A stretch of 64,000 nucleotides of DNA from Trypanosoma brucei (Eukaryota). The translations under genes and the position numbers were made by a program. Positions within the stretch are counted from its first letter, which is position 1. The number at the start of each line of letters is the position of its first letter. Where the stretch lies: positions 2,016,001 through 2,080,000 of the forward strand of contig CH464491.1 in NCBI GenBank assembly GCA_000002445.1, read 5' to 3'. Below the pieces are notes generated by a model. It was given only the letters and a program-made list of their open reading frames with translations. It searched no databases and was not told where the DNA came from. Of this stretch, positions 12,394 to 12,630 are shown in pieces.

Positions 12394-12630
12394 ATGAGAC
12401 AACCCTTTCCGACTACTTGGAAGGTTTACCTCCCCGGTCTGTTCGTCATGGCGATTTACACCTTCGTCATATACTTCAATAATACCCGCGGCAATTTAGT
12501 GAAGGCGGGTCACGACTTTACGCCGATCTATTCTGAGGAGGGAAAACTGGAAGGCTTCACGCATCCCGTGTTGGTGCGAGCAGGTGATAACTACAGGAGT
12601 CGCGAGAACGCAAAAGCAGACTCGTCATAA
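12394..12630 (+). CDS. Candidate small single-pass membrane protein (78 aa), unassigned
   Basis: ATG verified at 12394. It is immediately preceded by the polypyrimidine tract 'ttgctatgtttttcttttttcttttttag' and an AG acceptor at 12367–12368. One hydrophobic helix (LPGLFVMAIYTFVIYF) is followed by a charged tail. Codon usage is balanced. The ORF sits alone in a 2-kb spacer that would otherwise be gene-free. Confidence 0.4.
   Translation: MRQPFPTTWKVYLPGLFVMAIYTFVIYFNNTRGNLVKAGHDFTPIYSEEGKLEGFTHPVLVRAGDNYRSRENAKADSS

What the first reader, a model, noticed from the sequence alone, without database searches (positions are those of the whole stretch)
12394..12630. Candidate unannotated 78-aa single-transmembrane protein in a 2-kb 'empty' spacer
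This is the only ATG-initiated ORF with coding-like codon usage in the 11.0–13.1 kb spacer. A textbook polypyrimidine tract plus AG lies 25 nt upstream. The ORF encodes one hydrophobic helix and a charged C-terminal tail (…RAGDNYRSRENAKADSS). Ab initio gene callers that use a minimum length often miss small single-pass proteins, such as accessory subunits of respiratory or ER complexes. Without it, the spacing between the neighbouring genes (1.4 kb upstream, 0.46 kb downstream) would be unusually large.
Basis: inference. Interest (0 to 1): 0.5.

Follow-up and report, generated by a model that had tools for sequence, protein, structure and literature searches.

The report
Known small mitochondrial membrane protein gene
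The 78-codon reading frame is a real gene, but it is already annotated in Trypanosoma brucei as Tb927.11.7260, and published proteomics detect its product as a small integral membrane protein of the mitochondrion whose exact job is still unknown.

Summary
The ORF is a genuine coding gene. The protein is conserved across kinetoplastids (57-72% identity in 10 clusters). It always lies just upstream of the proteasome beta-3 gene. Replacement changes are strongly suppressed while silent sites are saturated, and it is the only part of the 2-kb spacer that still aligns between T. brucei, T. cruzi and Leishmania.

It is not unannotated. The sequence is identical to GenBank EAN79692.1 / UniProt Q384T9, which is Tb927.11.7260 (Tb11.02.5165), "hypothetical protein, conserved", 8.932 kDa.

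Published mass spectrometry detects it at 44.9% coverage:
- It drops 4.5-fold in purified mitochondria after ATOM40 knockdown.
- It fractionates as a carbonate-resistant integral membrane protein.
- It falls when either Oxa1-1 or Oxa1-2 is removed.

No Pfam family, solved structure or fold match exists. The family is defined by an N-terminal transmembrane helix and a near-invariant HDFVPIY-E-GKL-GFTHP-LVEA motif.

Best reading: a kinetoplastid-specific inner-membrane microprotein, probably an accessory or assembly component. Its function has not been determined. As a discovery it is ordinary, because the gene is already known.

The parts
12348..12366 (+). 19-nt uninterrupted polypyrimidine tract, the predicted trans-splicing signal of this gene
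   Evidence: Read directly. Pyrimidine-rich stretches ending in AG also lie upstream of the T. cruzi and L. braziliensis orthologues. Function is inferred from general trypanosomatid mRNA processing and was not tested.
12367..12368 (+). First AG after the pyrimidine tract, the predicted spliced-leader acceptor (would give a 25-nt 5' UTR)
   Evidence: Sequence. Use as an acceptor is inferred. No spliced-leader mapping data were available here.
12394..12630 (+). Coding sequence of Tb927.11.7260 (Tb11.02.5165, UniProt Q384T9): 78 aa, 8,932 Da, pI 9.1, stop codon included
   Evidence: ORF. 100% identical to EAN79692.1, CBH17711.1, SCU70834.1 and RHW67164.1. The ID, UniProt accession and 8.932 kDa mass match the ImportOmics tables.
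12424..12480 (+). Codons 11-29 (VYLPGLFVMAIYTFVIYFN): the single transmembrane helix
   Evidence: Best 19-residue hydropathy window. AlphaFold2 helix at residues 9-32 with pLDDT about 91. The protein is carbonate-resistant, enriched in the integral over the peripheral membrane fraction by log2 7.7.
12508..12585 (+). Codons 39-64 (GHDFTPIYSEEGKLEGFTHPVLVRAG): the family-defining, near-invariant motif, predicted as a beta-hairpin followed by the start of a C-terminal helix
   Evidence: Alignments A1 and A2. P44, G54, T56, H57 and P58 are invariant in 30 sequences. Y46, E48, G50, L52, F55 and V61 are at least 90% conserved. Predicted strands at 43-46 and 52-56 and a helix at 58-77.

Best explanation
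The ORF is the already annotated Trypanosoma brucei gene Tb927.11.7260. It encodes an 8.9-kDa, kinetoplastid-conserved, single-pass integral membrane protein of the mitochondrion.

**Shown by others' proteomics**
- The protein is made.
- Its abundance depends on the outer-membrane import pore ATOM40.
- It is carbonate-resistant.
- Its level in mitochondrial membranes falls when either inner-membrane insertase, TbOxa1-1 or TbOxa1-2, is removed.

**Shown here**
- Strong purifying selection.
- Fixed synteny next to the proteasome beta-3 gene.
- A family signature: an N-terminal transmembrane helix followed by an almost invariant HDFVPIY-E-GKL-GFTHP-LVEA motif.

**Inferred**
- It sits in the inner membrane.
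- The short, positively charged N-terminus faces the matrix, and the conserved hairpin-plus-helix domain faces the intermembrane space.
- There it binds a conserved partner as a small accessory or assembly component of inner-membrane (OXPHOS-related) machinery.
- The partner and the biochemical role are unknown.
For: **Identity and annotation**
- 100% match to EAN79692.1 / Q384T9 and to the T. b. gambiense and T. equiperdum entries.
- Tb927.11.7260 = Tb11.02.5165 = Q384T9, 8.932 kDa, equal to the computed 8,932.04 Da.
- Flanking IDs fit: DRC2 is Tb927.11.7240 and the proteasome subunit is Tb927.11.7270.

**Coding status**
- Orthologues at 57-72% identity in 10 clusters, including T. grayi, T. 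cruzi, Leishmania, Porcisia and Angomonas.
- The gene always lies directly upstream of proteasome beta-3, RPB9 and PanK.
- T. brucei vs T. cruzi: pN 0.185 against pS 0.89.
- T. cruzi vs L. braziliensis: dN/dS about 0.15.
- The two T. cruzi haplotypes differ by 4 silent and 0 replacement changes.
- The only inter-species DNA similarity in the whole spacer lies inside the ORF.

**Protein evidence and location**
- 44.9% sequence coverage by MS.
- After ATOM40 RNAi the ratio is 0.22 in gradient-purified mitochondria (n=4, p=0.0029), 0.31 in whole cells and 0.27 in organelle fractions.
- It is listed among the new mitochondrial candidates.
- Soluble minus membrane is log2 -3.7, and peripheral minus integral is log2 -7.7, giving the class 'Membrane integral'.
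- TbOxa1-1 knockout: -3.6 (membrane) and -2.15 (integral).
- TbOxa1-2 knockout: -1.6 and -1.47, with -logP 4.9 and 3.8.
- ATOM40 itself is unchanged in the TbOxa1-1 knockout.

**Topology**
- Mean net charge is +2.4 in the N-flank and +0.2 in the C-flank across 30 homologues.
Against: - No experiment addresses function, sub-mitochondrial membrane or orientation for this protein specifically.
- The Oxa1 data come from single rows of a preprint's supplementary table. The TbOxa1-1 changes have modest significance (-logP 1.6-2.0).
- Its depletion pattern (both knockouts) matches none of the marker subunits. Complex IV markers fall only without Oxa1-1. ATP synthase subunit 8 and cytochrome b fall only without Oxa1-2. 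So subunit status in a known complex is not supported.
- The preprint assigns it no functional group.
- It has no hit in any solved structure, including trypanosome ATP synthase and mitoribosome entries.
- It was not found in the stored parts of the hyperLOPIT, TrypTag and kinetoplast-loss supplements.
- ImportOmics candidate lists contain some false positives, for example nucleoside transporters.
Confidence: 0.85

Rival explanations
1. It is a direct client of the Oxa1 insertion pathway with a role of its own, for example a regulator or a lipid- or carrier-associated microprotein. It would not be part of an OXPHOS complex, and its loss in both knockouts would reflect failed insertion.
For: It is depleted in both the TbOxa1-1 and the TbOxa1-2 knockouts, unlike marker subunits of complexes IV and V, which respond to only one. 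In the TbOxa1-2 knockout the soluble fraction rises (log2 +1.0, not significant). This is the direction reported for mis-sorted membrane proteins.
Against: The predicted N-in/C-out orientation with a positive N-tail is the stop-transfer type, which normally does not need Oxa1. The soluble-fraction change is not significant. No interaction data exist.
Confidence: 0.3
2. It is a signal-anchored protein of the mitochondrial outer membrane, with the conserved C-terminal domain facing the cytosol.
For: The architecture resembles outer-membrane signal anchors: an N-terminal, moderately hydrophobic helix (mean hydropathy 1.64) with basic flanks. ATOM40 dependence and carbonate resistance do not distinguish outer from inner membrane.
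Against: Its level depends on inner-membrane Oxa1 insertases, whereas ATOM40 is unchanged in the TbOxa1-1 knockout, the only one for which its values were read. In the preprint's table it is not flagged as a POMP (outer-membrane proteome) protein, while other proteins are.
Confidence: 0.08
3. It is a chance ORF in a long untranslated region and does not encode a protein.
For: An ATG ORF of this length arises in about half of shuffles of the spacer. The mRNA is scarce in bloodstream forms, at rpkm 7.8 against a median of 30.6.
Against: - Frame and sequence are conserved across kinetoplastids, with saturated silent sites.
- Similarity is confined to the ORF.
- In an AT-rich relative with reassigned stop codons the invariant Trp is written TGA, and the frame continues.
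- Peptides covering 45% of the protein have been detected.
Confidence: 0.01

Closest known systems
[quoted passage not shown]
   Same: Identical amino-acid sequence, mass and genomic position. This is the same gene.
   Different: Nothing differs. The database entry carries no function, domain or family.
MIIP1 and MIIP2, MICOS-interacting integral microproteins of T. brucei (PMC13644384)
   Same: All are under 100 aa, single-pass, mitochondrial, and lack a conventional presequence. MIIP1 is likewise conserved across Kinetoplastea, and its C-terminus faces the intermembrane space, as predicted for this protein.
   Different: - MIIPs have a transmembrane domain starting 4-5 residues from the N-terminus, a GxxxG motif, and a long continuous helix or coiled coil. 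T. brucei MIIP1 is unusually acidic.
- This protein's helix starts at about residue 10. It has no GxxxG, has a predicted beta-hairpin motif, and has pI 9.1.
- MIIP gene IDs were not available for a direct check.
Small single-pass supernumerary subunits of respiratory complexes (for example NDUFA1/MWFE of complex I, or QCR9/QCR10- and COX7/COX8-type subunits)
   Same: Similar size and one transmembrane helix. It is nuclear-encoded and imported without an obvious cleavable presequence. Its abundance is tied to inner-membrane complex biogenesis. The N-terminal 'W-x-V-Y-L-P-G-L' loosely recalls the 'MWFEILPGL' start of NDUFA1; this comparison is recalled from memory.
   Different: - No Pfam match at E up to 10 for the T. 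brucei protein, and nothing credible for 30 family members.
- No sequence match to any chain of a solved respiratory complex.
- No fold match.
- Its response to the Oxa1 knockouts differs from all complex markers checked.

Membership tests
Tb927.11.7260 orthologue group (kinetoplastid 'conserved hypothetical' microprotein) | Sequence identity to the annotated T. brucei protein Q384T9 / EAN79692.1 | tested here: met
   100% identity over 78 of 78 residues. Exact-sequence look-up lists EAN79692.1, CBH17711.1, SCU70834.1 and RHW67164.1.
Tb927.11.7260 orthologue group (kinetoplastid 'conserved hypothetical' microprotein) | Conserved position directly upstream of the proteasome beta-3 gene | tested here: met
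   Same gene order in T. b. gambiense, T. equiperdum, a third Trypanozoon assembly, T. cruzi (3 contigs) and L. braziliensis-group genomes. It is also seen in an AT-rich Logan contig.
Tb927.11.7260 orthologue group (kinetoplastid 'conserved hypothetical' microprotein) | N-terminal transmembrane helix plus the HDFVPIY-E-GKL-GFTHP-LVEA motif | tested here: met
   Alignments A1 (11 sequences) and A2 (30 sequences), with the invariant residues listed.
Mitochondrial importome of T. brucei (ATOM40-dependent proteins) | Significant decrease in purified mitochondria after ATOM40 RNAi (log2 at or below -0.62, p<0.05) | not testable with these tools
   Taken from the literature and not re-measured here: log2 -2.17, p=0.0029, n=4 (PMC5436138 Supplementary Data 6).
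MIIP1 (MICOS-interacting integral microprotein 1) | Transmembrane domain starting 4-5 residues from the N-terminus and containing GxxxG | tested here: not met
   The helix starts at about residue 9-11. The only glycine in it is G15, and there is no GxxxG.
MIIP1 (MICOS-interacting integral microprotein 1) | C-terminal two-thirds form one extended helix or coiled coil, and the T. brucei protein is unusually acidic | tested here: not met
   Predicted strands at 43-46 and 52-56 lie between the two helices. The pI is 9.1.
MIIP1 (MICOS-interacting integral microprotein 1) | Gene identifier given by the authors | not testable with these tools
   The main text gives no Tb927 ID, and no supplementary file is held.
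NDUFA1/MWFE and other Pfam families of small OXPHOS subunits | Match to the family profile at or above the curated threshold | tested here: not met
   There are 0 Pfam families at E up to 10 for the T. brucei protein. Among 30 members there were only scattered sub-threshold hits: NDUF_B12 in 1 member at E=0.2, and TraI_C in 6 members with best E 0.0015, judged spurious.
Subunits of structurally solved mitochondrial complexes | Sequence or fold match to a chain in the Protein Data Bank | tested here: not met

The most novel reading that the evidence does not exclude
The protein founds an undescribed, kinetoplastid-restricted family with no Pfam entry. It would be a new accessory subunit or assembly factor of inner-membrane complexes. 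Its invariant GFTHP hairpin would dock, on the intermembrane-space side, onto a partner whose biogenesis needs both Oxa1 paralogues. That would explain why the protein falls in both knockouts, unlike the complex IV and V markers checked; for complex III only the TbOxa1-1 response of CYC1 and RISP and the TbOxa1-2 response of cytochrome b were seen.
Probability: 0.35. Interest if true: 0.4.

Novelty: already known. Interest (0 to 1): 0.2.

Why it matters
For genome annotation it matters little. The gene has been in the T. brucei and T. cruzi records from the original genome deposits, and its product has been seen by mass spectrometry.

Three things are still useful:
- It shows that an apparently empty 2-kb spacer is simply a microprotein gene plus untranslated regions.
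- It ties together scattered proteomic evidence for a protein with no name.
- It gives the family a recognisable signature, which several trypanosomatid annotations may lack.

If the protein proves to be a lineage-specific component of mitochondrial inner-membrane biogenesis, it would add to the list of parasite-specific mitochondrial parts.

Tried and rejected
**Domain, structure and RNA searches that found nothing**
- Pfam on the protein and on 30 family members gave nothing credible.
- PDB sequence searches with the single protein and with a profile gave only chance hits.
- An Rfam scan of the spacer gave only sub-threshold noise.

**Rejected leads**
- P0032, a 2,498-aa hit of the profile search, is a bacterial repeat protein matching through 'GHTFVGWY'-like repeats. 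It was rejected as spurious.
- The N-terminal 'presequence-like' extensions of some metagenomic homologues were first taken as a hint of mitochondrial targeting. They were then rejected as gene-caller over-extension: in the contig examined for this (P0025) only 22 nt separate the gene from the one before it.
- Identity with MIIP1 was considered and rejected on features.

**Literature**
- Searches by UniProt accession and by Leishmania, T. cruzi, T. vivax, Angomonas and old T. brucei IDs found nothing in main texts.
- The ID was absent from the stored parts of the hyperLOPIT, TrypTag and kinetoplast-loss supplements.
- The Pyrih et al. sub-mitochondrial map is not held.

**Taxonomic reach**
- Presence beyond Kinetoplastea could not be established. 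The metagenomic contigs with informative neighbours carry kinetoplastid-specific genes (RESC7, REH2).

Full report
**1. The observation**

The window carries an ATG at 12394 that opens a 78-codon frame closed by TAA at 12628-12630. Upstream lies an uninterrupted 19-nt pyrimidine run (12348-12366), followed directly by AG at 12367-12368, 25 nt before the ATG. The neighbouring long ORFs end at 11023 and start at 13089, so the quoted gaps of 1.4 kb and 0.46 kb are right.

The protein is MRQPFPTTWKVYLPGLFVMAIYTFVIYFNNTRGNLVKAGHDFTPIYSEEGKLEGFTHPVLVRAGDNYRSRENAKADSS. It has one hydrophobic stretch (residues 11-29, mean hydropathy 1.64), a mass of 8,932 Da and pI 9.1.

Length alone proves nothing. 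Half of 1000 shuffles of the spacer contain an ATG ORF at least this long. Codon usage (0.162 bits per codon) falls within the range of the window's real genes (0.15-0.32). A non-conserved 48-aa ORF at 11330..11476 scores similarly.

**2. It is a real coding gene**

A search of 5.8 billion proteins returned the identical sequence plus orthologues at 57-72% identity in 10 clusters. Eight are named (T. grayi, T. cruzi, four Leishmania entries, Porcisia and Angomonas) and two are unnamed assemblies.

In every genome examined the gene sits directly upstream of the proteasome beta-3 subunit, RPB9 and the pantothenate-kinase fusion gene.

Selection statistics:

| Comparison | Result |
|---|---|
| T. 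brucei vs T. cruzi | silent sites saturated (pS 0.89), pN 0.185 |
| T. cruzi vs L. braziliensis | dN/dS about 0.15 |
| Two T. cruzi haplotypes | 4 silent, 0 replacement changes |

When the whole 2-kb T. brucei spacer is compared with the syntenic spacers of T. cruzi and L. braziliensis, the only alignable DNA lies inside the ORF.

In an AT-rich relative with the same synteny, the invariant tryptophan is written TGA and the frame runs on. This is the pattern expected of a trypanosomatid with reassigned stop codons.

**3. It is already annotated**

Exact-sequence look-up shows the protein is GenBank EAN79692.1 / UniProt Q384T9 (T. brucei brucei 927). It is also CBH17711.1 (T. b. gambiense) and TEOVI_000240900 (T. 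equiperdum). The T. cruzi orthologue is Q4DHA8.

The ImportOmics tables link Q384T9 to Tb927.11.7260 = Tb11.02.5165, 'hypothetical protein, conserved', 8.932 kDa. This matches the computed mass.

The flanking identifiers agree. DRC2 is Tb927.11.7240 (the NYD-SP28 protein at 7569..9092), and the proteasome subunit is Tb927.11.7270. The window is therefore T. brucei chromosome 11, and 'unannotated' is wrong.

**4. What is known experimentally (literature, not re-measured here)**

*ImportOmics study (PMC5436138)*
- The protein was identified with 44.9% sequence coverage.
- That equals 35 residues, which fits MRQPFPTTWK + AGHDFTPIYSEEGK + LEGFTHPVLVR. This is my arithmetic. If it is right, the N-terminus is not removed.
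- After ATOM40 RNAi the abundance ratios were:

| Sample | Ratio | p |
|---|---|---|
| Gradient-purified mitochondria (n=4) | 0.22 | 0.0029 |
| Whole cells | 0.31 | 0.011 |
| Organelle fractions | 0.27 | 0.00013 |

- It is listed among the new mitochondrial candidates, without a predicted presequence.

*Oxa1 insertase preprint (2026, doi 10.64898/2026.06.30.735475)*
- The protein is enriched in membranes over the soluble fraction (log2 3.7).
- It is enriched in the carbonate-resistant integral fraction over the peripheral fraction (log2 7.7), and is classed 'Membrane integral'.
- Changes on insertase removal, as log2 fold change:

| Protein | TbOxa1-1 knockout (membrane / integral) | TbOxa1-2 knockout (membrane / integral) |
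|---|---|---|
| Tb927.11.7260 | -3.6 / -2.15 (-logP 1.6 / 2.0) | -1.6 / -1.47 (-logP 4.9 / 3.8) |
| COXIV (complex IV) | -1.47 / -1.60 | -0.02 / -0.18 |
| COXVI (complex IV) | -2.05 / -1.13 | -0.09 / -0.38 |
| ATP synthase subunit 8 | +0.19 / -0.17 | -1.80 / -1.66 |
| Cytochrome b (complex III) | not seen in the stored passages | -1.30 / -1.32 |
| CYC1 (complex III) | -1.05 / -0.74 | not seen |
| RISP (complex III) | -0.12 / -0.54 | not seen |

- Tb927.11.7260 is unaffected by loss of TbOxa1-3.
- Complex IV markers fall only without Oxa1-1. ATP synthase subunit 8 falls only without Oxa1-2, the knockout in which cytochrome b also falls. The outer-membrane pore ATOM40 is unchanged in the TbOxa1-1 knockout.
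- The protein's dependence on both paralogues fits neither complex IV nor complex V. For complex III the comparison is incomplete, though CYC1 and RISP fall much less in the TbOxa1-1 knockout. The authors give it no functional group.

*Bloodstream-form expression (PMC3332058)*
- The mRNA is scarce in bloodstream forms (rpkm 7.8 against a median of 30.6).
- It rises 8.7-fold after CTR9 RNAi, alongside procyclic-stage transcripts.

**5. Family anatomy**

An exhaustive profile search of 1.84 billion representatives found only 25 proteins at E up to 0.001. One of them is a spurious bacterial repeat protein.

The rest are 44-175 aa. The full-length ones share the same plan: a short basic N-terminus, one transmembrane helix, then HDFVPIY-E-GKL-GFTHP-LVEA and a charged tail. 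P44, G54, T56, H57 and P58 are invariant in 30 sequences.

The metagenomic contigs with informative neighbours carry kinetoplastid-specific editing genes (RESC7, REH2) in tight same-strand arrays. One hit is from Trypanoplasma borreli. The family is therefore Kinetoplastea-wide, and nothing shows it beyond that group.

With 30 sequences AlphaFold2 gives pLDDT 78. It predicts a helix at 9-32, a hairpin at 43-46 and 52-56, and a helix at 58-77.

Across the family the N-flank of the helix carries +2.4 net charge on average and the C-flank +0.2. By the positive-inside rule this predicts N-terminus in the matrix and the conserved domain in the intermembrane space.

**6. Comparison with known things**

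No match was found by any route:
- Pfam.
- PDB sequences, including chains of solved mitochondrial complexes.
- Fold comparison.

The recently described MICOS-associated microproteins MIIP1 and MIIP2 are the nearest functional analogues. They are small, single-pass, mitochondrial and C-out, and MIIP1 is conserved across kinetoplastids. However, their helix position, GxxxG motif, coiled coil and acidic pI do not fit this protein. Their gene IDs could not be obtained.

**7. Verdict**

It is a known one: Tb927.11.7260, a mitochondrial integral membrane microprotein of unknown function.

The claim of an annotation gap is not.

The most likely mechanism is an inner-membrane anchor presenting a conserved intermembrane-space hairpin to a partner in Oxa1-dependent membrane-complex biogenesis. 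This is inference and needs tagging, topology, interaction and knockout experiments.

Noticed in passing
L013:6281-6514 (Logan SRR24877950 contig, 30-37% GC): The orthologue in this AT-rich contig has TGA at the codon aligned to the family's invariant Trp, and the frame continues. A proteasome gene fragment lies downstream, as in trypanosomatids. Neighbouring gene calls are short fragments. This looks like a trypanosomatid with reassigned stop codons (Blastocrithidia-like).
   Followed up: partly
window 11330..11476 (+): A 48-aa ATG ORF in the same spacer has a codon-usage score (0.175 bits/codon) as high as real genes. It shows no similarity in the T. cruzi or L. braziliensis spacers, so it is probably chance.
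   Followed up: partly
L001:4797-5153 (+) and L001:2746-3048 (-), T. b. gambiense chromosome 11: The gambiense annotation calls a 118-aa ORF in the spacer upstream of the small gene, and a 100-aa antisense ORF after DRC2. Neither is called in the T. equiperdum or third Trypanozoon assembly, so they are likely spurious models.
   Followed up: no
PMC10361982 supplementary file 13 (orthologue table): In T. congolense IL3000 the orthologues of Tb927.11.7250 and Tb927.11.7270 have consecutive IDs (000932200 and 000932300). In T. vivax two IDs lie between them. The microprotein gene may therefore be missing from the T. congolense annotation. This is inferred from numbering only.
   Followed up: no
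window 12394..12630, and PMC3332058 Table 3: Tb927.11.7260 mRNA is low in bloodstream forms (rpkm 7.8; median 30.6). It is among the 47 ORFs most increased (8.7-fold) after CTR9 RNAi, together with procyclins and Tb927.3.2880, which the Oxa1 preprint lists as an ATP synthase subunit. This hints at procyclic-stage regulation.
   Followed up: partly
window 1..64000: Gene content identifies T. brucei chromosome 11, from about Tb927.11.7240 onward. All genes are on the + strand, as in one polycistronic unit. They include:
- DRC2 (7569..9092)
- proteasome beta-3 (13089..13706)
- RPB9 (about 14334..14741)
- a PanK fusion (15554..19957)
- an MFS transporter (21527..23107)
- an LRR dual-specificity phosphatase (25131..26477)
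- mitochondrial FAD-dependent G3PDH (37547..39445)
- a GP63-type metalloprotease (47579..49606)
- a PAPS-reductase-domain protein (50545..51513)
- a BCD1/zf-HIT protein (53567..55420)
- RRP44 (59286..62204)
   Followed up: partly
P0032 (2,498 aa; hit): A bacterial surface protein with many Listeria-Bacteroides-type repeats matched the family profile five times, through 'VGHTFVGWYSD'-like repeats. It is a false positive and worth remembering when this motif is used for searches.
   Followed up: yes
L014:47-857 and L016:62-971 (ENA metagenome contigs): Homologues with apparent N-terminal extensions that resemble mitochondrial presequences lie close behind the preceding gene (22 nt in L014, 82 nt in L016). 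The extensions are probably over-called starts rather than real targeting peptides.
   Followed up: partly
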